Shown: piece after piece, positions 1-56,649 of the stretch | How the letters are laid out: each line of letters starts with the position of its first letter | Position numbering within the stretch: the stretch's first letter is position 1 | Source of the DNA: an uncultured Deferribacteraceae bacterium | Lineage (GTDB): Bacteria; Chrysiogenota; Deferribacteres; CAMZNJ01 | NCBI GenBank assembly: GCA_947313825.1 | Contig: CAMZNJ010000024.1 | Span: forward strand, 1-56,781 | Direction of reading: 5' to 3' | Length of the DNA: 56,781 nucleotides | Program-made: the position numbers and the translations under genes | Notes under the pieces: generated by a model | What the model saw: only the letters and a program-made list of their open reading frames with translations | Databases searched by the model: none | What the model was told of the DNA's origin: nothing

Positions 1-669
1 CTAGCAGGACCACTGCAAACTAGCCTCGACCAAATGGACTCTATCCTACGCATGGTCGAACTCTCAGCACTACGCGACCCCTCCGAAACAGCAGCACACG
101 CACAACGCGTTGGAGCATACTCCTCCGAAATATTCGAACACTACGCTAGGGTCAACGGTGTCGCACACAACAAAATAAACTTCATCAAAGATAAAATTCG
201 CGTCTCAGCAATGCTTCACGACATAGGCAAAGTAGGGGTTGCTGACGCCATCCTAAAGAAAAAAGGACCTCTCACCGAAAGCGAAAGAACAGCAATGAGA
301 AAACACTCGGTCAAAGGTGCAAAAATATTCGACAAACCGCGTAACTCACTGGAAAGCATCGCCAAAGAGATAGCACTACACCACCACCAACAGTGGGACG
401 GAAGCGGTTACCCAATAGTGCAACTCCCCTCAGGGGGCAACAGACCTCTGAAAGGAGAAGAAATACCCATATCAGCACGAATTGTCGCCATTGCCGACGT
501 GTTCGACGCACTCGTAACAAAACGATCCTACAAAGAGGCAATCCCCGTGGAGGAAGCAGTGAAAATAATCAACGACTCCTCAGGAACACACTTCGACCCC
601 GATGTTGTAGCATCGTTTAACGCAGTCCTCCCCATCCTACAACTAATCGGGCACCGCTACCCATCGTAG
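1..669 (+). CDS. HD-GYP domain c-di-GMP phosphodiesterase (probably 5'-truncated by the window edge)
   Basis: Motifs HDIGK, HHQQWDGSGYP, ARIVAIADVFDAL and GTHFDP. The frame is open from base 1 through the ATG at 34. Confidence 0.9.
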   Translation, partial: LAGPLQTSLDQMDSILRMVELSALRDPSETAAHAQRVGAYSSEIFEHYARVNGVAHNKINFIKDKIRVSAMLHDIGKVGVADAILKKKGPLTESERTAMRKHSVKGAKIFDKPRNSLESIAKEIALHHHQQWDGSGYPIVQLPSGGNRPLKGEEIPISARIVAIADVFDALVTKRSYKEAIPVEEAVKIINDSSGTHFDPDVVASFNAVLPILQLIGHRYPS

Positions 670-838
670 GCGTGTGGCTGTGTAGTCGTGTGGCTGTGTA
701 GTCGTGTGGCTGTGTAGGCGTGTGGCTGTGTAGGCGTGTGGCTGTGTGGTCGTGTGGCTGTGTAGGCGTGTGGCTGTGTAGTCGTGTGGCTGTGTAGGCG
801 TGTGGCTGTGTAGTCGTGTGGCTGTGTGGCTGTGTGGC
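667..838 (+). repeat. Tandem array of 10 x 16 bp TAG(G/T)CGTGTGGCTGTG plus a partial unit
   Basis: Read directly. The first unit begins with the TAG stop of the HD-GYP gene. Confidence 0.97.
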
Positions 839-856
839 ACCGTCCATTATTTACTA

Positions 857-885
857 TGGACTATCCTTGCCCGATGGTGTATACT
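857..885 (+). promoter_or_regulatory. Putative sigma70 promoter
   Basis: TGGACT-17 bp-TATACT, about 155 bp upstream of the yggT-like ATG. Confidence 0.55.
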
Positions 886-1040
886 TGTAAGTGATTAACC
901 CTAAACATATCAAACAAGGTGTTTGCGTAAGGTGCCTGTGCCTATTCACACAGGGGCAACTCGACCACTAAGCCCCTTACGGCGACTGCAAATCCATTTT
1001 TGCAGACTAATTTTGCGGATTGATTAGGGCAGGAGGATAC

Positions 1041-2965: not shown

Positions 2966-3028
2966 GCAACAACAGCCTGCTCAGCTCGGAAAATGCTCCC
3001 CGTATGCATGTTGCCCCAACGGGATTAG

Positions 3029-3108
3029 TGGCTGTGTGGCTGTGATGACTGTGTTGCTATGTTGCTGTGATGACTGTGTGGCTGTGATGACTGTGTTGGC
3101 TGTGTTGC
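3029..3108 (+). repeat. Degenerate 8-9 bp tandem array (TGGCTGTG / ATGACTGTG / TTGCTGTG)
   Basis: About 9 units upstream of trpS. It shares the TGGCTGTG octamer with the 667-838 array. Confidence 0.85.
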
Positions 3109-3154
3109 GGTAATGGTTCGGGGTGTACTGATCGAATAAGCAAAAGGGTGGTTT

Positions 3155-4157: not shown

Positions 4158-4197
4158 CAAGCGTAATGGGCACAAGCGTAATGGGCACAAGCGTAAT
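4158..4197 (+). repeat. Tandem array of about 2.7 x 15 bp CAAGCGTAATGGGCA
   Basis: Read directly, 13 bp after the trpS stop. Confidence 0.9.
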
Positions 4198-4230: not shown

Positions 4231-5151
4231 ATGGCAAACCACAAACCTGACTCCAAGTCAAAAAACCTTACGTCGTCGGGGTTGAGGCTCAACAAATACA
4301 TTGCAACACATTACGGGTGCAGTCGACGCGATGCCGATAAACTTATCGATGCCAAACGTGTTAAGATAAATGGACGTGTGGCTGTGCTAGGTGATACCCA
4401 ACAGGCTGGGGACGTTGTGTCTGTTGACGATGCCCCCGTTTATGAACAGAAAGAATACACCTACATCAAATTTTACAAACCCAAAGGGATGCTCTCAACA
4501 TACGCGTCAAACACTGTGGACACCGAAGGGAAAGCAACACTCATGGATATACCCCAGTTCGCCAAAAACAAACTCCCCTATGCCGGTCGACTAGATTACG
4601 ATAGCGAAGGGTTGATGATACTTAGCAACAACCGTGAGCTAGTGAGTAGCCTCTCCCATCCGTCGTCTCGCTCTAGCAAGGTTTACCGCGTATGGGCATC
4701 GCGTAGCCTGACTCCCAGTGAGCTCCATGACCTCGAGTCGGGCATCGCCTACAAGGGGATTCAGTACGCACCTTGCCATATTCACGCCATCGGCTCCAAT
4801 AAATACAGCGTAACCCTTTACGAGGGCAAAAATCGCCAAATTCGTAACATGTTTAGGTTCATGGATATTCATGTTCGTCGCCTTGTTCGCGTTAGCGTCG
4901 CCTCTGTTCGTTTGGATGGCATGAAGGCAGGTGAGTTTCGTGTACTGACTGCTCAGGAGGTTGCTTCTTTGGCGTCGCGTTCTTCGGGGCAGGGCACTCG
5001 TTCTTCGGGGCAGGGCACTCGTTCTTCGGGGCATAGCTCCTCGGGGCAGGGCACTCGTTCTTCGGGGCAGGGCACTCGTTCTTCGGGGCATAGCTCTTCG
5101 GGGCATAGCTCCTCGGGGCAGGTCTCTTCGGGTGGGCGAAATAAGCACTAG
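4231..5151 (+). CDS. rRNA pseudouridine synthase (RluB/RluF/RsuA family) with S4 domain and repeat-derived C-terminal tail
   Basis: RLNKYIA...SRRDAD S4 motif, KPKG, GRLDYDSEGL and EGKNRQIRNM. Confidence 0.92.
   Translation: MANHKPDSKSKNLTSSGLRLNKYIATHYGCSRRDADKLIDAKRVKINGRVAVLGDTQQAGDVVSVDDAPVYEQKEYTYIKFYKPKGMLSTYASNTVDTEGKATLMDIPQFAKNKLPYAGRLDYDSEGLMILSNNRELVSSLSHPSSRSSKVYRVWASRSLTPSELHDLESGIAYKGIQYAPCHIHAIGSNKYSVTLYEGKNRQIRNMFRFMDIHVRRLVRVSVASVRLDGMKAGEFRVLTAQEVASLASRSSGQGTRSSGQGTRSSGHSSSGQGTRSSGQGTRSSGHSSSGHSSSGQVSSGGRNKH
4978..5133 (+). repeat. In-frame 21/15 bp tandem array encoding SSGQGTR / SSGHS
   Basis: Units TCTTCGGGGCAGGGCACTCGT and TCTTCGGGGCATAGC in the order 21,21,15,21,21,15,15,15. 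Confidence 0.95.
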
Positions 5152-7447: not shown

Positions 7448-9664
7448 ATGTATTCTAAAGATAACTTTTCAACATTTGAATTAAAAAATGTGGGACTCGT
7501 ATCGCTCATCACATACTTCGCCATATCAGTCTTCATCTCAGTAGGCTCCCTTGTTGCAATCTATGCTGCATCCGTCTACAGCAATAACAAAAATGTGGAA
7601 TTTATCGAAGGAACATATGTTGCCAAAAATATCGAAATCGGAGTAGAAGACTACAAGTTTTTGCTGAGCCTCTATCTGTCAAGCCCCACAAAAGACATAT
7701 CCAACGCCGTTAATGATTTGCACAAAGAAATTTATGGCGATATCATTGCCATATCCAAAACGTACGAGAATGCACAATATCAGGAAGTGGTAAAGAAATT
7801 CTCGAGGCTAGATAGTGTGTTTTCGCAGCTAGCACAAAAATATGGAACGTTCTACTCAAGTGATGACAGTAGCAAAGGCTCCAAGGCCATACTAATCAAA
7901 CAAATTAACGCTCAGATGGACGAAGTTGTGGCAACTGGAGATGTTAACCTAATAAAAGTCTACCTTGAGTACTACCAAATTGCACTAGGGTCTCTGCAGG
8001 ACAATAGCTTTGTAGTTGATACTCTTGCCAATACCACAAATATCGATAGCCTCAAAGTGTACCGCGACAATTATATGGCAGCCATTGAGCGGGCACCCCT
8101 TAGCCCATTGGTCAAGAGAAACCTTCGAAATAGATTTAGCGCCTACACAAAAGATCTCACAGAATACTACAGCGATATTCGGGAGATGTGGAGCCCTAAT
8201 GGTATCGCCACTCTCTCAAGGGCAGAGCTGATAGAAACCTTAGATCTACTAGCTGAAAGTAATGCCAAATACTTAGATGAGATTAGCCATCGAAATGACT
8301 CAGCCTTATCATTGCTACGCATACTAAATATCGCACCCATTGCTATTATGCTATTTGTCTTCTCCGTACTAGGGCACCTCTTACGCACCAAAATACTCCT
8401 CCTCAAATCTGAATTACGCAAAATACTCCTGTTTACAGGGCACACAGAGGATGTTGCCAATAAAGTGGGAAACCTAGGCAGTGTACGACATGCCTCCGGT
8501 AACGAAATAGAATACACCTTCCGATTCCTGCGATACATTCGTGCAAGATTGCACTACATATTGACAAGTGCTTTGGGGCTAAGTAGGCAGGTCTCACAAG
8601 ACGTTGATGTTATCAAAGACGAGTCCATCAACCTCTCAGCTAGGTTCAACAACCAAACAACAGCACTCTCAGGAATTGCCGACACTGTGTCGGACGTGAG
8701 CACAAACTCCATGGTAATGGTTGGGCTTCTCGAACGGATGAAGTCCGACGTCTCCATCGCCCGAACAAGTGCTCTCTCCAGTAGCAACAAACTCGACTAC
8801 ACCATAGGCATTGTTAGCGATATACACGACCAAGTCATAAACCTGTCGCAAACCATCGACCGAATCGACGAATTCGCAACCGAAATCAACAACATACTAG
8901 ACTCAATTAGCAGCATCGCCGAGCAAACAAACCTTCTAGCACTCAACGCTGCCATTGAAGCCTCTAGGGCAGGGGACGCTGGTAAAGGGTTTGCCGTTGT
9001 TGCAGATGAGGTGCGTAACTTGGCAGAGCTAACACAAAAATCTGTCCTAGAAATATCCACCATAATCAACACATTTGGTGCCGATAGTAAAAATGCCAAC
9101 AGAAGCATGAGTGCAACTGTGGACAAGGTCAACAAAGGAAGCAACACCATTCGCGAGGTGCGAAGCTCTTTCGACGAAATGGGGGATATTGTTGCCAGTG
9201 TTGGCGATCGTACCGACAATATCCTCGAGTCGTTCAACAAACAAAACAACGATATCCACACAATTAGCTACAAAATTCACGCCGTCTCTGACGACATCGA
9301 GGGAAGCAACGCTACACTAGAAAATATTACCGGATCCCTATCAAAACTCTCTGAAGGATCCAATAAGCTAGGAGCTCTCATCGAAACATTTGACCTAAAT
9401 ATGCCAGTACCTATTTACGACCACAACACAAGAGACTACCCCGTTGGCGTAACCTTCAGGAGTAGTGCCACGGACTTCCCCACTGACCTAACCAAGAGTC
9501 GCGGGGGCAACGATAACCTCGCACACGCTCAACCCAAAGGCGACGGCAGTGCAGGCAGTGTAGGCGGTGCAGGCAGTGTAGGCAATGTAGGCAGTGCCGG
9601 CGGTGCAGGTATTGCTAGCGACGGTGGTAAGCCTAGCACGCACAGTGGTCAAACATCGGTATAG
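7448..9664 (+). CDS. Methyl-accepting chemotaxis protein
   Basis: [37 protein letters not shown] signalling hairpin, with two TMs flanking a periplasmic domain. Confidence 0.96.
9545..9607 (+). repeat. In-frame 7 x 9 bp array GGCAGTG(C/T)A in the MCP tail
   Basis: Encodes [21 protein letters not shown]. Confidence 0.9.
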
Positions 9665-11788: not shown

Positions 11789-14700
11789 ATGAGTATTCAA
11801 GAAAAGGGGGAAACATCCTCCACGGTGCAACATGAAACCACAACAACCACTAAGGGAACCACTCCCGAGGGAATCATTCCCGAGGGAATCATTCCCGAAG
11901 GAACCACAAACGCACCCACACCACCACGCAAACCACTTTGGCGTCGAATTTTATCAATAATTACAAAGGTGTTCGTCGCCTTTGTCGTGCTGGGTATTGT
12001 TGGAGTTCTCTCTTTTGCCGCACTAATCTACTACCTAAACAAGCAGTTGCCCTCCAACGCCGAACTTCACAATTATACCTACAATACCCCCTCGGTTATT
12101 TACGACAGAAACGGCGAACAAATAGGGTTACTCGGCACATTCAAACGCGAACCGGTGCCCCTTGAAGCAATAAATACTTGCCTGATTAACGCCACCATTG
12201 CCATTGAAGACGAACGGTTTTACGAACACCAAGGGTTTGACCTACGTGCAATCTTGCGTGCGGCGAAGGCTGATATTGCCGCAAGAAGCGTGGTGGAAGG
12301 TGCCTCTACACTTGACCAACAGGTTGCACGAAACCTATTCCTTACCCGTGATCAAACAATTATCCGCAAACTCAAAGAGGTGATTATCGCCTATCGGATG
12401 GGGAAAGTGCTCTCCAAAGATGAAATAATAACCCTCTACCTCAATGTTGTACCCTATGGGCGTGGGGCTTACGGGATACAGGCCGCAGCCGAAAACTATT
12501 ACGGCAAGGATAACACAGAACTAACAATCTCAGAATGTGCAACCATTGCAGGACTACCGCAAGCACCATCCTACATCGCACCACACCTTAGTATTGAACG
12601 TGCCACTGCAAGGCGAAACCGTGTACTAACACGCATGTTTGAAGACGACTACATTACCGAAAACGAATACAGTGAAGCGATAACAACAGAAATCACCATT
12701 ATCGACAAAGTAGAACCACGACGCAAGTACGCCAACTACTTTGTGGACTACGTAATAACTGAACTCAAGCGTGTAGCAAATATTACTGACTACTTAGACA
12801 ACGGCTACACCATTCACACAACGCTAAGCCTAAACCTACAAGAGAAAGCCGAAAACGCTGTTGAGCTAAACCTCATCGATCTAGCAAAACGCCAAGGATT
12901 CACTGGCGAACTAAGCCGATTCTCATACGAAGAGGCTACGCAAGAGGTACGCAACAAACTCGAAGAGATAGCACGAAATAACGCTGAAGAGGGCGGAGAA
13001 GCTCAGACCGATACCGATACCACCGATACCACCAATACCACCAGCACCACTGCACTAGACGTGGACGCCATGGCTCTAACGGACAAAAAACAGTTCAACA
13101 CGGCTATTGATGCAGGGCAACTCCCAACAGCAGAACTCTACACAGATACCTACAAACAAACTGTGCACAACCTCTATTACGAACAACTCACAGACGTGCC
13201 AAGCTACTTAACAAAAAGAGGGGCGGAAAAAGCACTCGTCATATCCCTAAACAGAACATTTGCAAGGGTGCTCCCACTAAACAACACAACAGTAAACCTA
13301 CTCGTAAACCCAAATATCAACCGTGGCGACAAAATACGCGTACTACGTGGTAACTCCATGCTCATACCCATCAGCTCCACAAGGTGGGCAGCAAATAGTA
13401 GCGACAAAATTGCAGGAAGAGCCTTTAGCGTTAGCTCCATGCTCCGAGTACTCGAAACAAAGGACATCATCTACATCACGCCAACAAACAAACTCTACAA
13501 TCCGCAAGACAACAACAGTGAATACTTAGCATACCTATTCCAAGAACCAACCGCCGAAGGTGCAATGCTGAGCGTAAACAAAAACAACGAAATCGTCGCA
13601 ATGGTGGGGGGCTTCAACTACTACAAATCCGTCTACAATCGGGCATACCAATCTTACCGACAAATGGGAAGTGCCTTCAAACCCATCGTTTACGCAACAG
13701 CAATCGAAAATGGATACGCTTTCGCAGACTATGTGGACGACATACCCATCATCAAAGAGGGACAAAACAACACCACATGGAAACCAAGTAACTACAACGA
13801 AATATTCTACGGCACAACAACATTTGCCGAAGGGCTAGCAAAATCAAGAAACACAGTAACAATACTGCTGGCAGAAAAACTAGGACTCGAACGGATACTA
13901 AATATGACCAAACGGTTCCACTTCTCCTCAGAAATGCCAAACGACCTAACAGTAAGCATCGGTGCCGGATCAGCCTCTGTTATGGAGGTGGCATCGTCGT
14001 TCAACGTCTTCAACAACCTAGGAATATACCAAGAACCTGTAGCTATTTTAGATGTGTGGAACTCGGACGGAGTGCTCGTATATTCGGCTAGTGGCAACTA
14101 TGACAATACCACGAACGGCGACGACGAACTGCTCGCCACCGATACTGCCACGAACGGCGACGACGAACTGCTCGCCACCGATACTGCCACCATCGCCGAC
14201 GACGAACTGCTCGCCACCGATACTGCCACGAACGGCGACGACGAACTGCTCGCCACCGATACTGCCACCATCACCGACGACGAACTGCTCGCCACCGATA
14301 CTGCCACGAACACCGACGACGAACTGCTCGCCACCGATACTGCCACCATCGCCGACGACGATCAGCCCATGTTCAGCGACCCGAATCGAATTCTCGGCGA
14401 ATCAGAGGCGTATGAAGTTCTTACAGTTTTGGAGGATGTGGTCAATAAGGGTACAGCAATCGCGCTGAGGTCGGTGGGACGTCCGTTGGCGGCAAAAACC
14501 GGCACGACGAACGATTACCGTGATGCTTGGTTTGTGGGCATGTTTCCCAACCTACTAACAGTTGCGTGGGTGGGGTTCGACAACTTCACAACTCTGGGGA
14601 ATGCTGAGTACGGTGTACGTGCCGCGTTACCTGCTTGGCGACGCTACACTAGCGATATTCTGGACGAACTGCCTTACGCACTGTTCCCGCTACCAACGAA

Positions 14701-14837: not shown

Positions 14838-14911
14838 GCGGTCAGGCGATGCAACGCGGTCAGTCGATGTAACGCGGTCAGCTTAGGTGTGTGTTGCGGG
14901 TGTGTTGCGGG
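14838..14911. repeat. Two short arrays (2.4 x 18 bp GCGGTCAG(G/T)CGATG(C/T)AAC; 2 x 11 bp TGTGTTGCGGG) filling a convergent gap
   Basis: Read directly between the stops at 14833 and 14917. Confidence 0.9.
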
Positions 14912-14916
14912 TATTA

Positions 14917-17621: not shown

Positions 17622-17675
17622 TGTTAGCGTGCAGTGTGTTAGCGTGCAGTGTGTTAGCGTGCAGTGTGTTAGCGT
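17622..17675. repeat. 3.6 x 15 bp array TGTTAGCGTGCAGTG
   Basis: Fills the gap between the nfo stop and the RBS of the next gene. Confidence 0.95.
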
Positions 17676-20456: not shown

Positions 20457-20625
20457 TGCACGAAAGCTGCACAAAAGCTACCCGAAAGTTTCACGAAAGT
20501 TGCACGGAAGCTACCCGAAAGTTGCACGAAAGCACTGCACGAAAGTTGCACGGAAGCTACCCGAAAGTTGCACGGAAGCTACCCGAAAGTTGCACGAAAG
20601 CACTGCACGGAAGCACTGCACGGAA
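20457..20625. repeat. About 15 units of 11/13 bp (TGCACG(A/G)AAG(C/T), TACCCGAAAGT, TGCACGAAAGCAC)
   Basis: Read directly. A higher-order pattern of variants is visible. Confidence 0.95.
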
Positions 20626-20722: not shown

Positions 20723-20755
20723 GCAGTACCCGGTGGGCAGTACCCGGTGGGCAGT
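20723..20755. repeat. 2.4 x 14 bp GCAGTACCCGGTGG
   Basis: Ends 3 bp from the ftsZ stop. Confidence 0.9.
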
Positions 20756-20758
20756 GCC

Positions 20759-29182: not shown

Positions 29183-29238
29183 TGGTGCGGTGGCGTGGTG
29201 GTGCGGTGGTGCGGTGGTGCGGTGGCGTGGTGGTGTGG
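29183..29238. repeat. 7 x 8 bp G-rich array TGG(T/C)G(C/T)GG upstream of ftsW
   Basis: Read directly. Confidence 0.9.
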
Positions 29239-30804: not shown

Positions 30805-30999
30805 GCACCGCGACCCGCGTGAGCCGTGCTCAGCACTCAGCAACACCGCGACCCGCGTGAACCGTGCTCAGCACTCAGCAACACCGCGAACTGCGTGAAC
30901 CGTGCTCAGCACTCAGCAACACCGCGACACGCGTGAGCACCGCGACCCGCGTGAACCGTGCTCAGCACTCAGCAACACCGCGACCCGCGTGAACCGTGC
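30754..30999. repeat. Composite array: 5 x 38 bp GCGACCCGCGTGAACCGTGCTCAGCACTCAGCAACACC, 2 x 18 bp GCGACACGCGTGAGCACC and a partial unit
   Basis: Order 38,18,38,38,38,18,38,20. Ends 3 bp from the cysS stop. Confidence 0.96.
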
Positions 31000-33949: not shown

Positions 33950-33987
33950 TAACTAATGTATTACTTATAACTAATGTATTACTTATA
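33950..33987. repeat. 2 x 18 bp TAACTAATGTATTACTTA
   Basis: Perfect tandem duplication upstream of the cytochrome RBS. Confidence 0.9.
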
Positions 33988-39885: not shown

Positions 39886-40128
39886 GCGTGGCAACACGGT
39901 TGCGTGCAACACGTTGGCGTGCAACCCGTTGCGTAATGCTGTTGTGCGGTTGCGGTAACACTTTGTCGTGCAAAAATAATGGAAGATAACACATAGGTCG
40001 AACGGTCGCACTCAACCACCTTCTCAAGGTAGTGGGTGCGATTTTTCGTGTTACGGAAAATACGTTGGCGTGCAACACGTCGCGGAAAACACGTTGGCGT
40101 GCAACCTATTGCGTAATGCTGTCGTGCG
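39886..40128. repeat. Two CAACACGTTGGCGTG-type mini-arrays, each ending in a 41-bp direct repeat (39908-39948 and 40088-40128)
   Basis: AACACGTTGGCGTGCAACC..TTGCGTAATGCTGT.GTGCG, 3 mismatches, 180 bp apart. Confidence 0.9.
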
Positions 40129-46689: not shown

Positions 46690-48015
46690 TTAGAAGATGA
46701 GTCGGATGTATGTTGGTGTGCGTCGCATTTCGACGTTGTACGGTTTTGTTTCAGGTTTGGATTGAGCGTTGTTTTGTGGGATATTCTGATTAAGGGTTCC
46801 GTCAGCTGGGTTGTTTTCGGCTATGTTTTCGGCTATGTTTTCGGTGTTATCGTTGTTGGTTGGTATTTGTGCTGTGTTTGGTTGTTGCGGTTGGTTTTGG
46901 GGCACAGTCATGGGAGTGTTTTTGATATATTTTGTGATTTGTGTGCTAAGGTATTTGATGTCGAAAGTGCTGTCAATGGTGTAAGTGATGTTTGTGGTGG
47001 ATAGTGATTTTAGTGATGAGTCGGAGATGTAGCGTCTATTGGCGAGGTGTTTGAGTAGGTTGTTGATGTAAACCATGTCTTTCATGTTTTCGATGATTAG
47101 TTGGAACGATTGTTGGTTGGTGTTGGTGTAGTGGTTCAGAGCGATGGTTTCGCCTAGGGAGCTGATGATTTGTGGTAGTTGATCGTTGATGCATGTATTA
47201 AGTGAGTCTGTTTCGGAGATGTTTGTTTGTGGTTGGTAGTTTTCTGGTGAGCCTATTTTGTATGCGGCGGATGTTGTTGTTGTGATGTTGCATTCGAGGG
47301 TTTCGTCGTTGTAGTTGAGGCTGATGGATGTGTAGACGAGTCGGTCGATGTTGTTGTCGTTGCTGTAAGCGTTGTAGGCTTGGTTGTACCCTTGGTCGTT
47401 TATGAGGTCGACGCTGTTGTTTATGGTATCCTGTTTTGTGGCGGAGTAGAACTGTGTTTCTTTGAGTTTGGTGTTTAGTAGTTGTCCGACCCCTTCGTAT
47501 ATGGAGGTTGTTTCCCTGTTGCCGTTGATGTAGAGGTCGTACCATAGAGTTGAGTTTGTTTTTGCTAGTCCGATGATATTGTTCCACTGCATGAGGGCTT
47601 CGTCGTCGAGGTATACGCGGGTGATGTAGGAAACTCTGTTGTTGGCTGTGGAGATGGAGCGATTGATAATGCTGTAGGAGTTAATGAAAATGGTAAAGTC
47701 TTTGGTGATTTCGGTGGGTTGGTCGATGTAGGGTCTTGCGTTGAAGAATTTTTGGACAGAGTCGAAAAGTGCTCTCTGCAGGGCTCTGTTGTTTGCTGTG
47801 TAGAGGTTGCCGCCAGATATCGGTGCTGAGCCGTATGATGTTACTTGCACCTCCCCTTGTGCTGTGGTTGGGGTTAGTGTGAGGGGTAATAATACTAGCG
47901 ATAAGAGCACGAGGGTGTGTTTCATCATAGAGGGTATTTTTGCTGTTAGTTTTAGTGCTTCTGCTGTCATATTTGCTGTCATATTTGCTGTCAATGCAGG
48001 GATGTAACTCTTCAT
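46690..48015 (-). CDS. Exported hypothetical protein; N-terminus resembles the FlgT-N/LPP20-type domain
   Basis: Signal peptide, then VTSYGSAPISGGNLYTANNRALQRAL. N/T-rich, with internal TANM and ENIA repeats. Confidence 0.6.
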   Translation of the reverse strand: MKSYIPALTANMTANMTAEALKLTAKIPSMMKHTLVLLSLVLLPLTLTPTTAQGEVQVTSYGSAPISGGNLYTANNRALQRALFDSVQKFFNARPYIDQPTEITKDFTIFINSYSIINRSISTANNRVSYITRVYLDDEALMQWNNIIGLAKTNSTLWYDLYINGNRETTSIYEGVGQLLNTKLKETQFYSATKQDTINNSVDLINDQGYNQAYNAYSNDNNIDRLVYTSISLNYNDETLECNITTTTSAAYKIGSPENYQPQTNISETDSLNTCINDQLPQIISSLGETIALNHYTNTNQQSFQLIIENMKDMVYINNLLKHLANRRYISDSSLKSLSTTNITYTIDSTFDIKYLSTQITKYIKNTPMTVPQNQPQQPNTAQIPTNNDNTENIAENIAENNPADGTLNQNIPQNNAQSKPETKPYNVEMRRTPTYIRLIF

Positions 48016-50374: not shown

Positions 50375-51304
50375 CTAAGTAGTATTAACCGGTGTCTTGG
50401 GTTGCTTGGGTTGGTCTTGGTGCTCAAATATGTACAAAAAATCGGATAATGTTAGTTGCTCTGCTCGGATGCTGGGGCTCAAGTTGAGGGATTGGAGGAT
50501 TGTTGTGAGCTGTTCCCCACTAATCGCAGTATTTTTGAGGTTGTTGCGTAACGTTTTACGCTTTTGTGTAAAGCATGTTCGCACCATCTGAAAAAAGCTG
50601 TCTTCACGCTCAGGAGGCAGGGGGAGCGTAGGTTTGCGATCAAATACCAGCACAGTAGAAAGAACATTCGCCCGAGGCCAAAATTGACTACCAGAAACGT
50701 CAACAACCTTGCGAACGTTGTAGTAGTACTGTGTGAACACGGACAACGATGAGTAATTCTTGTTGTTTGGTGTGGCAGTGAGTCGCTGAGCAACCTCTTT
50801 CTGAAACATGAGAACAGCACTTTGGAACAGATGACCATATTGCGACGTAAGGCGGGTAAATATTTTGGTGGAAATATTGTAGGGAAGATTGCTCACTAGG
50901 CAGGGGAGGTTGCTGTTGTTGCTGTTGTGGTCGGTGCTGTTGTTGCTGTTGTCGGTGTTTGCGGTGTTTGCGGGGAATGATTGCAACACAGGGGTAAAGT
51001 CCACCTCGAGGGCGTCGCCATGGAGTAGGGTTAGGTGCGGGTATGTTGCACCGAGGTGTTCCTCCAGAAACCCCATGGCTTGAGGGTCTATCTCCACTGC
51101 AACAACATGGGCATTGTGTTGCAGTAGTGCCATGGTCAACACTCCACACCCCGGACCTATCTCCACAATATTGTTTGTGTATGATGTGGCTGTGGTGGCT
51201 ATTTTATCAATCACAAACCGATTGATAAGGAAATGTTGTCCTAGTGATTTACGAGTTTTGGCAAATTCTATTTTGTATTGTTGCACAAGGTTCAGTTTAG
51301 TCAT
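50375..51304 (-). CDS. rsmA: 16S rRNA m6,2A dimethyltransferase KsgA
   Basis: KSLGQHFL, VEIGPG, VEID, SNLPYNIST, MFQKEVA.RL and F.QKRKTLRN. Confidence 0.97.
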   Translation of the reverse strand: MTKLNLVQQYKIEFAKTRKSLGQHFLINRFVIDKIATTATSYTNNIVEIGPGCGVLTMALLQHNAHVVAVEIDPQAMGFLEEHLGATYPHLTLLHGDALEVDFTPVLQSFPANTANTDNSNNSTDHNSNNSNLPCLVSNLPYNISTKIFTRLTSQYGHLFQSAVLMFQKEVAQRLTATPNNKNYSSLSVFTQYYYNVRKVVDVSGSQFWPRANVLSTVLVFDRKPTLPLPPEREDSFFQMVRTCFTQKRKTLRNNLKNTAISGEQLTTILQSLNLSPSIRAEQLTLSDFLYIFEHQDQPKQPKTPVNTT

Positions 51305-52998: not shown

Positions 52999-55287
52999 AT
53001 GATTAGTTACTCGAAATGGTCAGGAAAAATCACCTTACGACGCTATTTGCCAACCCCTTACCCGCTTGGTGTGGTACGCCTGAAGGCACGCACAGGTGTG
53101 CTCACAGGTGTGCTCCTTGCTCTGATACTCAGTGTTGTCGCTGTGCCTAGTGTTGCCCTCGGTGCCAAGATATCCATATCGCCGTCTGAAGTGAAAACAT
53201 TTTTCCCCCTGCCCAGCGAGCTCCCTGGGGGTTCTAGGGTATGGATAAAATCCTCCGATAGTTCTGATCTCAAAAAGAAAGGTGATAGTTGCGACGTCAT
53301 TAGTACTGCCTACAACTACTTCTCCACAAAACCCAGCGTTAAGCTAGGTGTTGAACGTCAGTCATCCTACCCCGTGGATGTTCGTGTATTCTCGTGTGTT
53401 TCCCTTGAAGCGGCAAGCGATCAGTTCCACTACCTCTCAGCCATAGGCGACAACGAACACAAGGTTATGGTTGACTTTGGCGACAAGGCGACACTGTTGG
53501 TTTTGCCCTATGAAGGCACAAGCAAAACGGACACTCAGCAAGCTTCATACTACCTTACATTTATCAAAGGGGTATTCGTTACGCAAGTACACTCAACGGA
53601 CGGCTTCTCACTCATGGATATTGCTGACTTCATCGACATATCCATCGCAAACCTGATGAAACGATACCCCGACATGTTTATGATTACCTCCCTCGCCATG
53701 GTTATTCAGAAAGACGGGTTTGTCGATTACCACGAAGACGTCCTGTTTGCAGAAAATATCACGGCGTTAGACGTTCATGGCGAAGTGTATGACTCCCTTG
53801 GTAACCCCATGGATGGTGCAACAGTGCGAATCCCAACACTCAACGCAACAACCACAACCGACGGTGCAGGACGCTTTCGCATTGCATACAACGTTAATAA
53901 AAACTACACAGTAAAACTTACCAAAGTAATCTACATGCACGATCAGCCGGGCAAAACGTCGAGATCAAACGCCCTCGTGAGCGGTGTTTATGACCTGAAA
54001 ATGTTCATGCCAAACAAACCTGCTACCAAATACAGACTCGCGCTGCAAGTCAGACCATCGCAGGGGGGGAAGTACCGCTTGGCATTCGGCAACATGACTG
54101 CACGAGATGCAAACAACTCTCCTAGTGCAAAAAATTACCCCGTAAGGGGCAAAATCTACAGCAACGGGAGCCTCGAACTAATCGTCAACTGCAAAGAACG
54201 GGAATCCATCGCCTCCTGTCGACAGGTACTCAAATCTAGCAACGTCGGTGGCGATATCGTCTCCGGTGCATGGTCTGGAACTGGACCCGGTGGCATGTTC
54301 GAACTCTACAAAAATAGCTACACCAAACGCACCATTCGAGTTCGACTAGACAAATCCAACCTAGACCTAAGTAGTATCGAGCTTGATGCCAAAAACACAA
54401 CCATAAACCGAGACGATCAACCATTCATCTCCAACGACCCCAAGAGGGGGAAACGCTACATTGAAGCAGTGTTCTCACCAATCAAAGACAAAAGACTCAA
54501 AGAGGACGAAAACCTATTCGCAGCAACACTTGTACTACAGGTGGTGCCCTCGAGTACGCAAGTCGGAAGCATCCCCGTGTATGCCTACACCTTGCAAGGC
54601 AACAGCACCGCACGATCACTCTACCAACAGGGAAAGGTTGCAACACTGACTCCATCCACAGACTCATACCAGTTTCGTGTACCACTAGAAGGGGGCTCCA
54701 ACAACTTCACAGCACCACTAATCGGACCCGTATCATATAACTCATCCCTAGTGGCTCACCACCTTGTTGGAGACGTGGATAGCCTGAGGTATGCACCATT
54801 CATGGAGCTGACATACTACTTGCCACGTAAATCAGCTCAACCAAAATCATTCATAACTGTGTGGTTCAACGATGTGGACAAAGCTGATTACGTCAGCAAT
54901 GGCAACCTTCTAAAAAATGACGGGCGAGATGACGCTGTTCTAAATGTTAACTTCAACTCAAACGTGGGAAAACTGGACTTAATCGAACTAAGCATACCCT
55001 CTGTTGGGTTGAAGTACAATACGGTTTCAGGGGACTCAGCTCCTTGCGTTGCCCTTGCCATACAACGAAACAGCACACCTGAAGCAACCTACACGCTTGC
55101 TAGTCATAAAACCTGCCAAATAGGTGCCGACGGATCGGGGAGCGTTGCCATCAAACAAGGGGACAAAGCAAGGCTCTACATCTACAAACACTCCGCACTC
55201 ACTGATGCACTAAGGCGATCAAGTGGAAAACTAATGTACAAAATACGCATAAATGGCACAATGTATGAAGGTGTTGTAACACCATAA
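52999..55287 (+). CDS. Large exported hypothetical protein with a carboxypeptidase-regulatory-like (prealbumin-fold) domain
   Basis: Hydrophobic signal/TM segment, then VHGEVYDSLGNPMDGATVRI...TTTDGAGRFRI. Confidence 0.7.
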   Translation: MISYSKWSGKITLRRYLPTPYPLGVVRLKARTGVLTGVLLALILSVVAVPSVALGAKISISPSEVKTFFPLPSELPGGSRVWIKSSDSSDLKKKGDSCDVISTAYNYFSTKPSVKLGVERQSSYPVDVRVFSCVSLEAASDQFHYLSAIGDNEHKVMVDFGDKATLLVLPYEGTSKTDTQQASYYLTFIKGVFVTQVHSTDGFSLMDIADFIDISIANLMKRYPDMFMITSLAMVIQKDGFVDYHEDVLFAENITALDVHGEVYDSLGNPMDGATVRIPTLNATTTTDGAGRFRIAYNVNKNYTVKLTKVIYMHDQPGKTSRSNALVSGVYDLKMFMPNKPATKYRLALQVRPSQGGKYRLAFGNMTARDANNSPSAKNYPVRGKIYSNGSLELIVNCKERESIASCRQVLKSSNVGGDIVSGAWSGTGPGGMFELYKNSYTKRTIRVRLDKSNLDLSSIELDAKNTTINRDDQPFISNDPKRGKRYIEAVFSPIKDKRLKEDENLFAATLVLQVVPSSTQVGSIPVYAYTLQGNSTARSLYQQGKVATLTPSTDSYQFRVPLEGGSNNFTAPLIGPVSYNSSLVAHHLVGDVDSLRYAPFMELTYYLPRKSAQPKSFITVWFNDVDKADYVSNGNLLKNDGRDDAVLNVNFNSNVGKLDLIELSIPSVGLKYNTVSGDSAPCVALAIQRNSTPEATYTLASHKTCQIGADGSGSVAIKQGDKARLYIYKHSALTDALRRSSGKLMYKIRINGTMYEGVVTP

Positions 55288-55334
55288 CTGGAGCTCGATT
55301 GCTCTGCCTTTACAAGTGCGTAAGAGGGAACCGT

Positions 55335-56507
55335 ATGAATTACGTGATAAAAACAGACAAACTAGTACTTAGTGGCGGGGTTGTTGAAGGGTACATCTCT
55401 GTTCGCGATGGTCGAATTGCAGAGGTATCTCGCACACCCATTACCCTCGGGAATGGCGACAATGCTGTGGACTGCTCCGGTCTTTTTGTTGCACCCGGAA
55501 TGATGGACACGCATATTCACGGGCTCCATGGCTTTGACACTGCCAACAACAACGTTGACGACATACTAGGCATGTCCGATGCCCTCCTTCAGTACGGCGT
55601 AACATCGTTCTGCCCCACAATTTACACCAACCTTGAACCACTCTTTGTGGACGGTATTCGTGCCGCTGCCACTGCTCAGGGGAATGAAACCGGCTCGCGT
55701 ATTCACGGTATGCACTTGGAAGGACCATTCATATCGAAGTCGAAGGCTGGTGCACAACCACCTGACGCCATTCGTGAAACAGTGGACACAAGCCTGCTGG
55801 AAACCATCCACCGTTTTGCCAAGGGTAAGGTTTCCATTATGACTGCTGCTCCCGAAACCAACAATATCAGTGTATTGGTGGATTTCTGTAGGGGCGAGGG
55901 GATACGCCTGTCCGCAGGACACACTAACGCTACCCATGAAGAGATGTGTTGCGGTGCGGATATGGGGTTCTCGCGGGTTACCCACCTATTCAACGCCATG
56001 CCAAGTATTAATCACCGTGCCCCCGGTGCTGTCGTGGCTGCCCTCATGGATGATCGACTTTACTGCGAGCTAATTGCTGACGGCAAACATGTTAACAGGG
56101 CTGTTGCCGAGCTTGCTTTGCGGTGCAAACCTGCCGACAAAGTTATTCTTATCACGGACGCCTTATGTCCGACAGGTCTTACTGGTGGCAACCTGTTTGC
56201 TAATGGCAAGGCTGTGGAGATGCGTGATTCCCTTTGGCACCACGTTGAAGATGGCACCATTGCTGGCTCATCCTTGGATATGTTAACGGGCGTGAAAAAC
56301 CTGTCTCAGTGGGGCGTTGACATGCCAACAGCATTTCAGTACGCCTCCCAAAACCCTAACGCAAACCTTGGCGTTACAGATAGGGGGGCATTGGCTGTGG
56401 GTAATCATGCCGATATTATTGTTTTCGATGATAAGTTCGACCTCAAAGCAACAATAGTGGGCGGCGACCTCAAATATACGGGCAAAGGGTTCTCCCTCCC
56501 ATTGTAG
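55335..56507 (+). CDS. nagA: N-acetylglucosamine-6-phosphate deacetylase
   Basis: PGMMDTHIHG, HLEGPFI, GHTNA, THLFNAM, IADGKH, LITDA and IAGS. Confidence 0.96.
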   Translation: MNYVIKTDKLVLSGGVVEGYISVRDGRIAEVSRTPITLGNGDNAVDCSGLFVAPGMMDTHIHGLHGFDTANNNVDDILGMSDALLQYGVTSFCPTIYTNLEPLFVDGIRAAATAQGNETGSRIHGMHLEGPFISKSKAGAQPPDAIRETVDTSLLETIHRFAKGKVSIMTAAPETNNISVLVDFCRGEGIRLSAGHTNATHEEMCCGADMGFSRVTHLFNAMPSINHRAPGAVVAALMDDRLYCELIADGKHVNRAVAELALRCKPADKVILITDALCPTGLTGGNLFANGKAVEMRDSLWHHVEDGTIAGSSLDMLTGVKNLSQWGVDMPTAFQYASQNPNANLGVTDRGALAVGNHADIIVFDDKFDLKATIVGGDLKYTGKGFSLPL

Positions 56508-56525
56508 CAGGTTTTGATACTGCAC

Positions 56526-56649
56526 AAGCAGGCGGGCTAAGCAGGCGGGCTAAGCAGGCGGACTGAGCAGGCGGACTAAGCAGGCGGGCTAAGCAGGCGG
56601 GCTAAGCAGGCGGGCTGAGCAGGCGGGCTAAGCAGGCGGACTAAGCAGG
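56526..56649. repeat. 9.5 x 13 bp array (A/G)AGCAGGCGG(G/A)CT
   Basis: Read directly, 18 bp after the nagA stop. Confidence 0.97.

What the first reader, a model, noticed from the sequence alone, without database searches (positions are those of the whole stretch)
667..56649. Window-wide proliferation of locus-specific tandem repeats in an ordinary chromosome
Seen: about 30 arrays in 57 kb (manual count), nearly each with its own unit. Intergenic unit lengths are 8, 10, 11, 13, 14, 15, 16, 17, 18, 19, 23 and 38 bp. Arrays wholly inside genes have units of 9, 12, 15, 21 or 39 bp, always a multiple of 3. Several show higher-order patterns of variant units (4978, 20457, 30754), implying repeated rounds of expansion. 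They are not copies of one mobile repeat such as REP or a MITE. Known: a similar syndrome of unique-unit repeats creating disordered protein regions is described for archaeal Borg elements. Inference: this bacterium has an active repeat-generating process (slippage-prone replisome, lost mismatch repair or a dedicated factor), with frame-preserving arrays retained by selection.
Basis: partly seen in the sequence, partly recalled or inferred. Interest (0 to 1): 0.85.

Follow-up and report, generated by a model that had tools for sequence, protein, structure and literature searches.

The report
Borg-like tandem repeats in a bacterium
This small-genome gut-symbiont-type bacterium is riddled, genome-wide, with hundreds of fast-changing tandem repeats, each with its own unit, at a density otherwise described for the archaeal Borg elements.

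Summary
TRF finds 24 arrays (score >=50) in the window against 0-2 in 20 shuffles. The whole 1.26-Mb genome (G000, Deferribacteres class) holds 676 arrays, 4.7% of its bases. Its only congener G005 has the same load; other families of the class have about 8 times less. By the Borg paper's criterion (perfect, >=3 units, >=50 nt) G000 has 5.6 regions per 100 kb, as Borgs do.

Units are multiples of 3 in 326 of 341 arrays inside genes, against 94 of 263 between genes. Array-coded peptides are T/A/H/D/N/G/P/S-rich and sit in unstructured loops of housekeeping enzymes such as MurG.

Turnover is fast. The congener has no array or a different unit at the same sites, and another sample's contigs differ by whole units.

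Lost mismatch repair is refuted: MutS and MutL are intact. Not found in either genus genome are DnaQ-family exonucleases, RNase HI and a Y-family polymerase. Other DnaQ-less lineages of the class are only mildly repeat-rich, so the cause remains inferred.

Best reading: raised local duplication and slippage, filtered by selection.

The parts
666..838 (.). 16-nt unit x 10.8 (92% match), GT-rich. It starts 4 nt before the end of ORF 1-669 and runs into the spacer.
   Evidence: TRF. The congener's assembly breaks here: the left flank lies on G001:C5 and the right flank on C23.
3028..3115 (.). Intergenic array with nested periods 17/25/42.
   Evidence: The orthologous site in G001 is 25 nt with no array.
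4158..4197 (.). Perfect 15-nt unit x 2.7, starting 13 nt after the stop of ORF 3155-4144.
   Evidence: G001 has a different 14-nt duplicate at the same site.
4978..5132 (+). In-frame array (periods 21/36/57/15) at the C-terminus of a pseudouridine synthase gene (4231-5151).
   Evidence: G001 has 284 nt with an unrelated 63-nt unit at the same site.
9545..9609 (+). 9-nt unit x 7.2 (27-nt higher order) near the C-terminus of the methyl-accepting chemotaxis protein gene 7448-9664.
   Evidence: G001 has 32 nt and no array.
11853..11907 (+). 15-nt unit x 3.7 in the N-terminal tail of the class A PBP gene (11789-14833). It encodes PEGII/PEGTT-type repeats.
   Evidence: An X2 contig lacks exactly 15 nt. 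G001 has about 1.6 diverged copies.
13007..13050 (+). 9-nt unit (6/9/18) array inside the PBP gene.
   Evidence: An X2 contig lacks exactly 9 nt. G001 has 9 nt and no array.
14109..14361 (+). 39-nt unit x 6.5 in the C-terminal part of the PBP gene.
   Evidence: G001 has 64 nt with a 27-nt unit x 2.4. The listed Logan contigs do not bridge it.
14838..14881 (.). 18-nt unit x 2.4, starting 4 nt after the PBP stop codon. An 11-nt x 2.2 array follows at 14889-14912.
   Evidence: The G001 contig breaks here. X1 record 2 bridges it.
17622..17675 (.). Perfect 15-nt unit x 3.6 between two minus-strand genes (16031-17611 and 17682-18506).
   Evidence: G001 has a 14-nt unit x 2.9 at the same site.
20457..20625 (.). 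11-nt base unit x 14 with 22/44/68-nt higher orders. It overlaps the putative start of the UDG-superfamily ORF 19702-20472.
   Evidence: An X2 contig skips 123 nt with 2 nt between, net 121 = 11 units.
20723..20759 (.). 14-nt unit x 2.6 abutting the stop codon of minus-strand gene 20759-21919.
   Evidence: An X2 contig lacks exactly 14 nt.
27102..27151 (-). 9-nt unit x 5.6 inside murG (26690-28012), encoding about aa 288-304.
   Evidence: An X2 contig lacks 18 nt. It is an insertion relative to 13 relatives' MurG, and the congener has a different repeat there. AlphaFold pLDDT is below 50 at aa 289-304.
27237..27279 (-). 9-nt unit x 4.8 inside murG, encoding about aa 245-259 (GAT/GTT-type peptide).
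   Evidence: AlphaFold pLDDT is below 50 at aa 244-256.
29183..29242 (.). 8/16-nt unit GT-rich array upstream of the FtsW/RodA-family gene 27951-29126.
   Evidence: G001 has 125 nt with a 9-nt unit x 13.8 at the same site.
29916..30144 (.). CA-rich 23-nt unit (19/23/65 nested), about 10 copies. It contains a perfect stretch at 29946-30044 and creates spurious ORFs in all six frames.
   Evidence: G001 has 363 nt with a 10-nt unit x 15.8. Not bridged in X1. One X2 contig skips 190 nt with only 30 nt of support on one side.
30754..30999 (.). Nested 18/38/56/94/132-nt array filling the convergent spacer between ORF 30223-30804 and gene 31003-32442.
   Evidence: G001 has 304 nt with a different 56-nt unit x 4.3.
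33950..33987 (.). Perfect 18-nt duplication (x 2.1). It lies in a doubtful ORF (33531-34058), so its coding status is uncertain.
   Evidence: G001 has a single, slightly diverged copy, which looks like the progenitor state.
39886..39934 (.). 15-nt unit x 3.3, starting on the first base after the stop of gene 38344-39885.
   Evidence: G001 has 120 nt with a 40-nt unit x 2.8.
46812..46844 (-). Perfect 12-nt unit x 2.8 near the C-terminus of ORF 46690-48015 (no Pfam family).
   Evidence: G001 has no array.
47962..47993 (-). Perfect 12-nt unit x 2.7 near the N-terminus of the same ORF.
   Evidence: G001 has 2.7 diverged copies, while the window's copies are homogenised.
50909..50973 (-). 9-nt unit arrays (three overlapping TRF rows) inside the rRNA adenine dimethylase (KsgA/RsmA-type) gene 50375-51379.
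   Evidence: G001 has 11 nt and no array.
53091..53115 (+). Perfect 12-nt duplication (x 2.1) at the N-terminus of gene 52999-55287.
   Evidence: G001 has a different 12-nt duplicate at the same site.
56526..56649 (.). 13-nt unit x 9.5, starting 18 nt after the stop of the amidohydrolase gene 55299-56507.
   Evidence: G001 has 17 unrelated nt and no array.

Best explanation
The window is an ordinary piece of the chromosome of a small-genome member of the class Deferribacteres (1.26 Mb, 47% GC). It belongs to a family-level lineage represented in the database by two genomes.

In this lineage short local duplications arise and then expand and contract by slipped-strand or template-switch events. 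They do so far more often, or are kept far more often, than in other members of the class. Each site builds its own unit from local sequence. Repeated rounds give nested higher-order periods, and old arrays decay by point mutation.

Purifying selection then filters the outcome:
- Inside genes, only units of 3n that encode small, polar, loop-compatible peptides at tolerant sites survive.
- Between genes, arrays survive next to the upstream stop codon and in convergent spacers, and are scarce in promoter-bearing spacers.

Shown here: the excess, its restriction to the lineage, the frame and position filters, the turnover, and the copy-number differences between samples.

Inferred: the slippage mechanism itself and its cause. 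My preferred cause, held with low confidence, is the lineage's replication and repair gene content. No DnaQ-family 3'-5' exonuclease and no RNase HI were found, while mismatch repair, RecA, RecJ, ExoVII and UvrD are kept. Proofreading is presumably done by an intact PHP domain of DnaE.
For: Excess:
- Window: 24 arrays against 0-2 in 20 shuffles.
- Genome: 676 arrays, 59,247 bp, 4.7% of bases, 0.54 per kb.

Lineage restriction:
- Congener G005: 87 arrays in 144.8 kb, 0.60 per kb.
- 19 relatives of other families: 25 arrays in 380 kb, 0.066 per kb.
- G023 0.05 per kb and G032 0.09 per kb.
- Of 80 uvrB loci, only the congener's locus is comparably dense among the Deferribacter* loci.

Borg-criterion perfect repeats:
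- G000 has 70 regions, 0.42% of the genome, 5.6 per 100 kb. Relatives have 0-0.56 per 100 kb.
- Borgs average 46 regions per 829 kb and 0.62%.

Frame filter:
- 326 of 341 in-gene periods divide by 3, against 94 of 263 intergenic and 22 of 72 straddling.
- Perfect subset: 30 of 32 in genes against 14 of 37 between genes.
- G005: 52 of 53.

Position filter:
- Convergent spacers hold 67 arrays in 21.2 kb, tandem spacers 180 in 94.5 kb, divergent spacers 34 in 32.8 kb.
- In tandem spacers 53 of 180 arrays start within 5 nt of the upstream stop. Only 6 of 180 end within 5 nt of the downstream start.

Peptide filter:
- T, A, H, D, N, G, P and S are enriched 1.2-2.2 times. W, F, Y, L, I, C, K and M are depleted.
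- MurG is 440 aa against 345-356 aa in 13 relatives. The insertions lie between conserved blocks and have pLDDT below 50 on an otherwise confident fold.

Turnover:
- Both flanks were found in the congener for 19 of the 24 window arrays.
- TRF (score >=30) found no array at 12 of these sites. At least 3 of those 12 hold a different small duplicate.
- At the other 7 sites there is an array with a different unit.
- One site shows a single-copy progenitor.

Ongoing change: another sample's contigs differ by -15, -9, -14, -18 and net -121 nt (11 x 11), exactly within arrays.

Gene content:
- PF00929/TIGR00573: 0 hits in G000 and G005, against 28 of 29 relatives and 46 of 53 complete phylum genomes.
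- tblastn of 8 relatives' DnaQ-family proteins on G000 gave nothing below E = 0.23.
- RNase HI: 0 hits in G000 and G005, against 7 of 7 relatives.
- The DnaE PHP domain aligns to the Thermus and mycobacterial enzymes. H/D/E/C stand at all nine positions that I recall as metal ligands.

Precedent: in the whitefly symbiont Portiera, loss of dnaQ is associated with a proliferation of tandem repeats and enlarged spacers (passages).
Against: The cause is correlative.
- The genome is half the size of its relatives', so many genes are gone. I tested 15 repair, replication or related families (16 counting the separate DnaQ-family model TIGR00573). Three are missing from both genus genomes.
- Two other lineages of the class also lack DnaQ-family genes: genus g12 (0 of 4 genomes) and g16 (0 of 1). 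Their repeat density is only 0.13-0.23 arrays per kb, against 0.05-0.09 in DnaQ-bearing genomes and 0.54-0.60 here. DnaQ loss is therefore at most contributory. Those lineages do keep RNase HI.
- G000 is 86% and G005 90% complete, so absence is 'not found'.
- The intact PHP domain argues against a gross proofreading defect.

Slippage itself is not observed. Only Logan contigs, not raw reads, could be laid, so heterogeneity within a population and the true length of long arrays are unknown.

My gene calls are crude: longest ORFs scored by codon usage. The 15 in-gene exceptions to the mod-3 rule were not examined.

The shared CA/GT-rich, strand-asymmetric composition of arrays is not explained by simple slippage.
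Confidence: 0.6

Rival explanations
1. Relaxed selection only. The rate of repeat birth is ordinary, but in a host-restricted, small-population symbiont slightly deleterious insertions are no longer purged, so arrays accumulate passively.
For: The genome is reduced to 1.26 Mb, against 2.0-3.2 Mb in relatives. Arrays sit in housekeeping enzymes where a benefit is not obvious. In 147 best-hit pairs the G000 protein is longer in 103 and shorter in 40.
Against: The lineage has halved its genome, so deletion works efficiently, yet 4.7% of it is arrays. Strong filters on frame and position show that selection is effective. Among the array sites compared, different units at the same sites in two species of 85-90% nucleotide identity are common (7 of 19, plus smaller duplicates), and unit differences occur between samples. 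This implies high flux, not slow accumulation.
Confidence: 0.13
2. Adaptive origin. Arrays are selected because they create disordered linkers or surface variation for host interaction, or regulatory or structural RNAs downstream of genes, as proposed for Borgs.
For: The peptide composition favours disorder. Arrays recur at the same protein sites in both species. Intergenic arrays cluster at gene 3' ends. The Borg authors argue for function.
Against: 230 of 989 called genes are affected, including cytoplasmic MurG, KsgA, a pseudouridine synthase and a PBP. MutS, MutL, UvrD, RecA and PolA reading frames are longer than in relatives, though arrays in them were not examined. Unit sequences are not conserved between species. 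Composition and site recurrence are equally expected from a tolerance filter. Genic and intergenic arrays share the same CA/GT-rich make-up, which points to a common mutational source.
Confidence: 0.15
3. A dedicated repeat-adding enzyme system (integrase-, nuclease- or polymerase-based), possibly the same unknown kind as in Borgs, writes the arrays.
For: The quantitative parallels with Borgs are close. These are density, share of arrays in ORFs, divisibility of units by three, T depletion and unique units. The compositional grammar of units is shared: CACAC/GTGTG occurs in 66 of 263 intergenic units, and |CA-GT skew| exceeds 0.3 in about 60% of arrays against 21% of background windows.
Against: No candidate gene was identified. 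No reverse transcriptase was found in G000. Arrays are mostly imperfect: only 150 of 676 show 100% match. They have nested periods, as expected from repeated slippage and decay. Single-copy progenitors exist at orthologous sites. A Borg-like A bias is absent.
Confidence: 0.1
4. Assembly or binning artefact.
For: This is a short-read metagenome-assembled genome. Contigs often end near arrays: 52 of 132 ends lie within 300 nt of one, against 29% of all positions. Long arrays are not bridged by independent contigs.
Against: The same syndrome appears in an independently assembled congener. Independent Logan contigs of two samples carry the arrays and differ by whole units. An artefact would not respect reading frames in 326 of 341 cases. 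Assemblers tend to collapse repeats rather than invent them, which is established knowledge.
Confidence: 0.02

Closest known systems
Tandem repeats of Borg extrachromosomal elements of Methanoperedens (Schoelmerich et al. 2023, PMC9879509). I read sections 2.1.1-2.1.2, 2.1.4 and 5.5 and the first part of the Discussion.
   Same: - Density by the same criterion: 5.6 perfect regions per 100 kb and 0.42% of bases here, against a mean of 46 per 829 kb and 0.62% in Borgs.
- About half of the arrays lie in ORFs: 341 of 676, or 32 of 70 perfect ones, against 43-65% in Borgs.
- Units in ORFs are divisible by 3. About a third of intergenic units are (36-38% here, 14-38% in Borgs).
- Units are unique to each locus.
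- Turnover between close relatives is rapid, and copy number varies.
- T is depleted and the encoded residues favour disorder.
- First units overlap gene ends.
- The nearest relatives, or the host in the Borg case, have almost none.
   Different: - This is a bacterial chromosome with ordinary housekeeping genes, not a giant linear archaeal element.
- Most arrays here are imperfect: 150 of 676 are perfect by TRF.
- The composition is CA/GT-rich and strand-asymmetric rather than A-rich.
- 23% of called genes are affected, though by my laxer TRF criterion. About 1.5% of Borg proteins are affected by the paper's strict aaTR criterion.
- No PolB9-type polymerase is implied.
Genomic instability of 'Candidatus Portiera aleyrodidarum' of Bemisia tabaci (Sloan & Moran 2013, PMC3673631; Santos-Garcia et al. 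2020, PMC7821994). I read passages found by term search.
   Same: - A host-associated bacterium with a reduced genome.
- A lineage-specific proliferation of tandem repeats.
- Enlarged spacers.
- No dnaQ.
- Sister lineages that keep dnaQ lack the repeats.
   Different: - Portiera repeats are short, with a spike at 7 bp, and concentrated in spacers. Here the median unit is 15 nt and half of the arrays are in-frame inside genes.
- Portiera also lost mutL, dnaN, dnaX, holA, holB, ruvC and ssb. Here MutS, MutL, RecA, RecJ, ExoVII and UvrD are present.
- Portiera has a 0.36-Mb, 26% GC intracellular genome. This one is 1.26 Mb at 47% GC with chemotaxis genes.
- Rearrangements were not examined here.
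Tandem-repeat instability in E. coli replication and exonuclease mutants: dnaQ/dnaE alleles and the ssDNA exonucleases ExoI, ExoX, ExoVII and RecJ. I recall this from the work of Lovett and colleagues and read none of it here. Sloan & Moran cite Zahra et al. 2007 for dnaQ and microsatellites.
   Same: It gives a mechanistic rationale. 3'-5' DEDDh exonucleases and a processive replisome suppress slipped misalignment. This lineage lacks every DEDDh (PF00929) homologue.
   Different: Those are laboratory alleles measured with reporter repeats. No natural genome-wide outcome of this size is implied. RecJ and ExoVII are retained here.
Contingency loci (phase-variable simple sequence repeats) of host-adapted bacteria. 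This is established knowledge and was not read here.
   Same: Host-associated bacteria carrying hypermutable repeats.
   Different: Contingency loci are few per genome. Their units of 1-8 nt switch genes on and off by frameshift or promoter spacing. Here in-gene units preserve the frame, so they cannot act as frameshift switches, and there are hundreds of them.

Membership tests
Borg-type tandem-repeat syndrome | High density of perfect TR regions (>=3 units, >=50 nt): 0.29-1.02% of the genome | tested here: met
   70 regions, 5295 bp, 0.42% of G000, against Borg Table 1.
Borg-type tandem-repeat syndrome | Units essentially unique to each locus | tested here: met
   480 of 676 arrays are singletons. 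The rest are linked by composition rather than by a shared element.
Borg-type tandem-repeat syndrome | Units in ORFs divisible by 3; only about 14-38% of intergenic units are | tested here: met
   326 of 341 in genes against 94 of 263 between genes. Perfect subset: 30 of 32 against 14 of 37. Gene calls are my own and crude.
Borg-type tandem-repeat syndrome | Rapid evolution: absent or different in the closest relatives, with variable unit number | tested here: met
   congener; contigs of a second sample.
Borg-type tandem-repeat syndrome | A-enriched repeats on the coding strand | tested here: not met
   A is 27.5% in arrays against 29.7% in the rest of the coding strand. The enrichment is in C and G, with T depleted, and in CA/GT dinucleotides.
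Borg-type tandem-repeat syndrome | Carried by a giant linear extrachromosomal element of Methanoperedens | tested here: not met
   The genome is a bacterial chromosome. It carries a bacterial 16S rRNA gene, UvrB, PBP, PriA and MurG. Its nearest named records are Deferribacteraceae.
Portiera-BT-type instability | No functional dnaQ | tested here: met
   No PF00929 or TIGR00573 match in G000 (86% complete) or G005 (90%). tblastn found nothing. This is 'not found', not proof of absence.
Portiera-BT-type instability | Loss of mutL and further replisome and recombination genes (dnaN, dnaX, holA, holB, ruvC, ssb) | tested here: not met
   MutL is present with its full domain set. dnaN, dnaX, holA, holB, ruvC and ssb were not searched.
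Portiera-BT-type instability | Repeats short (7-bp spike) and concentrated in enlarged spacers | tested here: not met
   The median period is 15, and 341 of 676 arrays lie inside genes. Spacers are only moderately larger: coding fraction 0.85 against 0.88-0.95.
Portiera-BT-type instability | Extensive rearrangement | not tested
   The window is collinear with the congener across four of its contigs. Synteny with other families was not analysed.
Mismatch-repair-deficient mutator | mutS or mutL missing or broken | tested here: not met
Dispersed repeat families (REP, MITE, CRISPR) | One conserved unit at many loci, or repeats alternating with unique spacers | tested here: not met
   There are no Rfam matches in the window.
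Phase-variable contingency loci | Unit length not divisible by 3 inside coding regions, so that slippage shifts the frame | tested here: not met
   Only 15 of 341 in-gene arrays have such periods. These were not examined.

The most novel reading that the evidence does not exclude
The Borg 'tandem-repeat syndrome' is not a peculiarity of Borgs. It is a general genome state that any replicon can enter when a particular safeguard against slipped or template-switched synthesis is lost.

In this bacterial lineage the safeguard is the combined absence of all DnaQ-family 3'-5' exonucleases and RNase HI, on a replisome that proofreads through the PHP domain. The resulting flood of in-frame arrays is a major source of new disordered loops across about a quarter of the proteome of an animal-gut symbiont.
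Probability: 0.2. Interest if true: 0.85.

Novelty: new variant of a known kind. Interest (0 to 1): 0.7.

Why it matters
Genome-wide proliferation of locus-specific tandem repeats has been treated as a hallmark of Borg elements, and their mechanism is unknown. In bacteria, of the literature I saw, only the much narrower Portiera case is described.

This lineage is a cellular chromosome with Borg-level density. It has a congener and more than 50 sequenced relatives that lack the trait, so the cause becomes open to comparative genomics. It narrows the candidates to a short list: DnaQ-family exonucleases, RNase HI and a Y-family polymerase.

The lineage is also a natural experiment on how much random in-frame insertion essential enzymes tolerate, and where. 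In addition, the arrays fragment short-read assemblies and inflate protein lengths in such genomes.

I found no mention of the trait in the main text of the paper describing the nearest named genomes (supplements not seen). Full-text searches did not find it either.

Tried and rejected
Loss of mismatch repair: rejected.

Loss of the Pol I 5'-nuclease (flap) domain: G000 shows no PF02739 match. This is because contig C51 begins inside polA, at residue 321 of the congener's 890-aa protein. The congener has the domain, so this idea is rejected.

Loss of RecJ, ExoVII, UvrD or RecA: all are present in both genus genomes. RNase HII is present. RecQ is not informative, because no genome of 9 passes the family cut-off.

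Reverse transcriptase as a repeat writer: none in G000 and one partial-looking hit in G005. I did not pursue this.

DnaQ loss as a sufficient cause: weakened. Genus g12 (0 of 4 genomes with a DnaQ-family match) and g16 (0 of 1) have only 0.13-0.23 arrays per kb.

Synteny proof of a clean dnaQ deletion: inconclusive. In family f2 a DnaQ-family gene lies about 3.5 kb from xseA. G000 keeps xseA and its 157-aa neighbour. The next genes of the relatives, including the exonuclease, have no counterpart, and gene order is not conserved.

Strand bias relative to transcription: the orientation of arrays is about the same as the coding background. Replication direction could not be assigned on contigs.

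Contig ends near arrays: only a mild enrichment, 52 of 132 ends against 29% of positions.

Sequencing runs: all three runs are held as Logan contigs. Depth, read-level heterogeneity and spanning of long arrays could therefore not be assessed. Parts without cover are not interpreted.

Supplements of papers are closed, and the supplementary tables of PMC9636832 and PMC9879509 might bear on repeat content and were not seen.

Not done: signal-peptide or localisation enrichment of array-bearing proteins; RNA folding of intergenic arrays; examination of the 15 in-gene arrays whose period is not 3n; searches for dnaN, dnaX, holA, holB, ssb and ruvC.

Full report
WHAT IS THERE

The window is a whole contig (C24) of a 1,256,116-base, 66-contig genome, G000, which is 86% complete. 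It carries ordinary chromosomal genes:
- a histidine kinase, a chemotaxis receptor, UvrB, a class A PBP, transketolase and PriA;
- MurG, an FtsW/RodA-family protein, an rRNA adenine dimethylase, an amidohydrolase and others.

UvrB places it among the Deferribacteres. The nearest named record, at 97% amino-acid identity, is titled as an uncultured Deferribacteraceae metagenome-assembled genome. All other relatives are at 66% identity or less. In the genome collection the lineage forms its own family, with two genomes: G000 and G005. G005 is the same assembly as G001, with the same contig numbers and coordinates. Both are about 1.3 Mb, against 2.0-3.2 Mb for the rest of the class.

TRF reports 73 rows in the window.
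- Merged, these are 24 arrays at score >=50, against 0-2 in 20 dinucleotide shuffles.
- At score >=30 there are 44 arrays, against 3-12 in shuffles.
- All 12 robust arrays inside called ORFs have periods divisible by 3. One of those ORFs is doubtful.

The window is not special. The whole genome has 676 arrays covering 59,247 bp, which is 4.7% of the genome and 0.54 per kb.

IT IS A LINEAGE TRAIT

| Sample | Arrays | Sequence | Per kb |
|---|---|---|---|
| Congener G005 | 87 | 144.8 kb | 0.60 (5.0% of bases) |
| 19 genomes of other families, 20 kb each around polA | 25 | 380 kb | 0.066 (0.6% of bases) |
| G023, wider sample | 11 | 220 kb | 0.05 |
| G032, wider sample | 20 | 220 kb | 0.09 |

By the criterion of the Borg study (no mismatch, >=3 units, >=50 nt), G000 has 70 regions. 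That is 0.42% of the genome, or 5.6 per 100 kb. The sampled relatives have 0-0.56 per 100 kb. The ten Borgs average 46 regions per 829 kb and 0.62%.

SELECTION FILTERS THE ARRAYS

I used my own crude gene calls: 989 ORFs covering 85% of the genome.

Frame:
- 326 of 341 arrays inside genes have a period divisible by 3.
- Only 94 of 263 intergenic and 22 of 72 straddling arrays do.
- For perfect repeats the counts are 30 of 32 in genes and 14 of 37 between genes.
- In the congener the in-gene count is 52 of 53.

Position between genes:
- Arrays are densest in convergent spacers: 67 in 21.2 kb.
- They are sparsest in divergent, promoter-bearing spacers: 34 in 32.8 kb.
- In tandem spacers 53 of 180 begin within 5 nt of the upstream stop codon. 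Only 6 of 180 end within 5 nt of the next ORF.

Effect on proteins:
- 230 of 989 ORFs carry at least one array.
- The encoded residues are enriched in T, A, H, D, N, G, P and S, and depleted in W, F, Y, L, I, C, K and M.
- In 147 best-hit orthologue pairs the G000 protein is longer in 103 and shorter in 40. The median excess is 66.5 aa when a TRF array is present (n = 26) and 6 aa otherwise (n = 121).

MurG shows the anatomy.
- It is 440 aa here and 438 aa in the congener, against 345-356 aa in 13 relatives.
- The extra residues lie at a few sites between invariant blocks.
- The two species carry different repeats at the same sites.
- In an AlphaFold model (mean pLDDT 79, pTM 0.79) the two array-coded stretches (about aa 245-259 and 288-304) coincide with two of the five segments of pLDDT below 50 (244-256 and 289-304). 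They have no secondary structure.

THE ARRAYS TURN OVER QUICKLY

The congener is collinear with the window at 85-90% nucleotide identity. Both flanks could be placed for 19 of the 24 window arrays.
- At 12 sites TRF found no array in the congener.
- At 7 sites there is an array with a different unit and period. Examples are 57 against 63 nt, 39 against 27, 16 against 9, 23 against 10 and 15 against 40.
- Closer reading shows a single-copy progenitor at one site. It shows diverged copies at two sites and small unrelated duplicates at three of the 'empty' sites.

Contigs of another sample (X2, holding 84% of the sampled words) differ from the window by -15, -9, -14 and -18 nt. They also show a 123-nt skip with 2 nt between, which is a net 11 units of 11 nt. 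Each difference lies inside an array and is a whole number of its units. The other indels listed for that run are 1-2 nt (10 further rows were not shown).

Only contigs, not reads, were available. Variation within a population and the length of the three longest arrays therefore remain unverified.

COMPOSITION

The arrays are not copies of one element, but they share a grammar.
- AC/GT plus CA/TG dinucleotides make up 41% of intergenic arrays and 38% of in-gene arrays, against 29% in the genome.
- CACAC/GTGTG occurs in the units of 66 of 263 intergenic arrays.
- About 60% of arrays have a (C+A)-(G+T) strand skew above 0.3, against 21% of background coding windows.

Genic and intergenic arrays share this make-up, which argues for one mutational source. 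T is depleted as in Borgs, but the Borg A bias is absent.

CAUSE

Mismatch repair is intact. So are RecA, RecJ, ExoVII, UvrD and RNase HII. Pol I is intact in the congener, while in G000 the gene is cut by a contig end.

Not found in either genus genome:
- Any DnaQ-family (DEDDh) exonuclease. There are 0 candidates, against 1-3 copies in 28 of 29 relatives. 46 of 53 complete genomes of the phylum have a match. tblastn is also negative. The relatives' genes pass TIGR00573.
- RNase HI: 0 hits, against 7 of 7 relatives.
- A Y-family polymerase: 0 hits, against 7 of 7 relatives.

The DnaE PHP domain is most similar to those of Thermus aquaticus and Mycobacterium tuberculosis DnaE1. It has H, H, D, H, E, H, C, D, H at the nine positions that I recall as the zinc ligands of the mycobacterial proofreader. 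The residue list is recalled. Counting along the alignment lands on those residue types at every position. Proofreading is therefore probably PHP-based, and the DnaQ-family proteins are accessory.

I tested the DnaQ idea on independent losses. Genus g12 (0 of 4 genomes with a match) and g16 (0 of 1) also lack the family. Their array densities are 0.13, 0.18, 0.23 and 0.13 per kb. That is above every DnaQ-bearing sample (0.05-0.09) but far below 0.54-0.60. They keep RNase HI.

So DnaQ-family loss may contribute but is not sufficient. The double loss with RNase HI is unique to this lineage among those I looked at, and this is a correlation from one lineage.

The published precedent is Portiera of Bemisia tabaci. 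There, loss of dnaQ together with mutL and replisome genes accompanies a proliferation of short intergenic repeats.

COMPARISON AND NOVELTY

The syndrome matches the Borg repeats on five of the seven features I tested. It fails on base bias and on the kind of replicon, so it works like the Borg repeats without being a member of that family. It shares with Portiera the symbiont setting and the missing dnaQ. It differs from Portiera in unit size, in the in-frame genic half, and in its intact mismatch repair.

I found no report of the trait.
- 'tandem' does not occur in the main text of the paper describing the nearest named genomes, and 'repeat' occurs there only for CRISPR.
- A later comparative paper on the phylum has no 'repeat' at all.
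- Full-text searches for tandem repeats with Deferribacteres, and for symbiont, reduced-genome and slippage terms, returned nothing on it.
- Supplements could not be read.

VERDICT

This is a real, strong, genome-wide and genus-wide repeat proliferation with a clear selective filter and fast turnover. Its mechanism is inferred to be slippage-type, and its ultimate cause is unresolved. I rate it a new variant of a known kind, with interest 0.7.

Noticed in passing
window 1-56781 and the whole G000 genome: The coding strand is unusually rich in A and C (A 0.297, C 0.258, G 0.216, T 0.230 outside arrays). As a result GC skew and AT skew have opposite signs and follow gene direction, with GC skew up to +0.32 where genes lie on the minus strand.
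   Followed up: partly
G000:C51:1-1853: polA is cut by the contig start. Only residues 321-890 of the congener's protein are present, so the 5'-nuclease domain appears 'missing' in family searches.
   Followed up: yes
G000 and G005 genomes: RNase HI (PF00075) and a Y-family polymerase (PF00817) were found in neither genus genome but in 7 of 7 sampled relatives. In family f2 the RNase HI gene, a DnaQ-family gene and xseA lie within about 12 kb of one another.
   Followed up: partly
G034, G044, G045, G046 (genus g12) and G057 (g16): Other lineages of the class also show no DnaQ-family match. In G045, 4 of the 7 sampled contigs begin with a tandem array at position 1 and a fifth has one at 182-331. 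G045 has 0.23 arrays per kb.
   Followed up: partly
L074 (Rhodovulum sp. DZ06 record, 22 kb around uvrB): 10 TRF arrays covering 7% of a 72% GC stretch, the only other dense locus among the 80 uvrB loci.
   Followed up: no
L128 (G028:C1:460000-479999): 7 TRF arrays in 20 kb of an otherwise repeat-poor relative. This could be one repeat-rich gene.
   Followed up: no
G005:C15:2905-3267: A reverse-transcriptase-like match (E 5e-13, 385-aa frame) in the congener, with no counterpart found in G000.
   Followed up: no
window 48079-50427 (-) and 46690-48015 (-): Two well-scoring ORFs of 782 and 441 aa have no Pfam family at E <= 0.001 and E <= 1e-4 respectively.
   Followed up: no
window 1-56781: No Rfam family, not even a tRNA, reaches the gathering score in 57 kb.
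   Followed up: no
window 29550-30218: The CA-rich array at 29916-30144 opens spurious ORFs of 104-203 aa in all six frames. All have negative coding scores. Automatic annotation of such genomes will call false genes there.
   Followed up: yes
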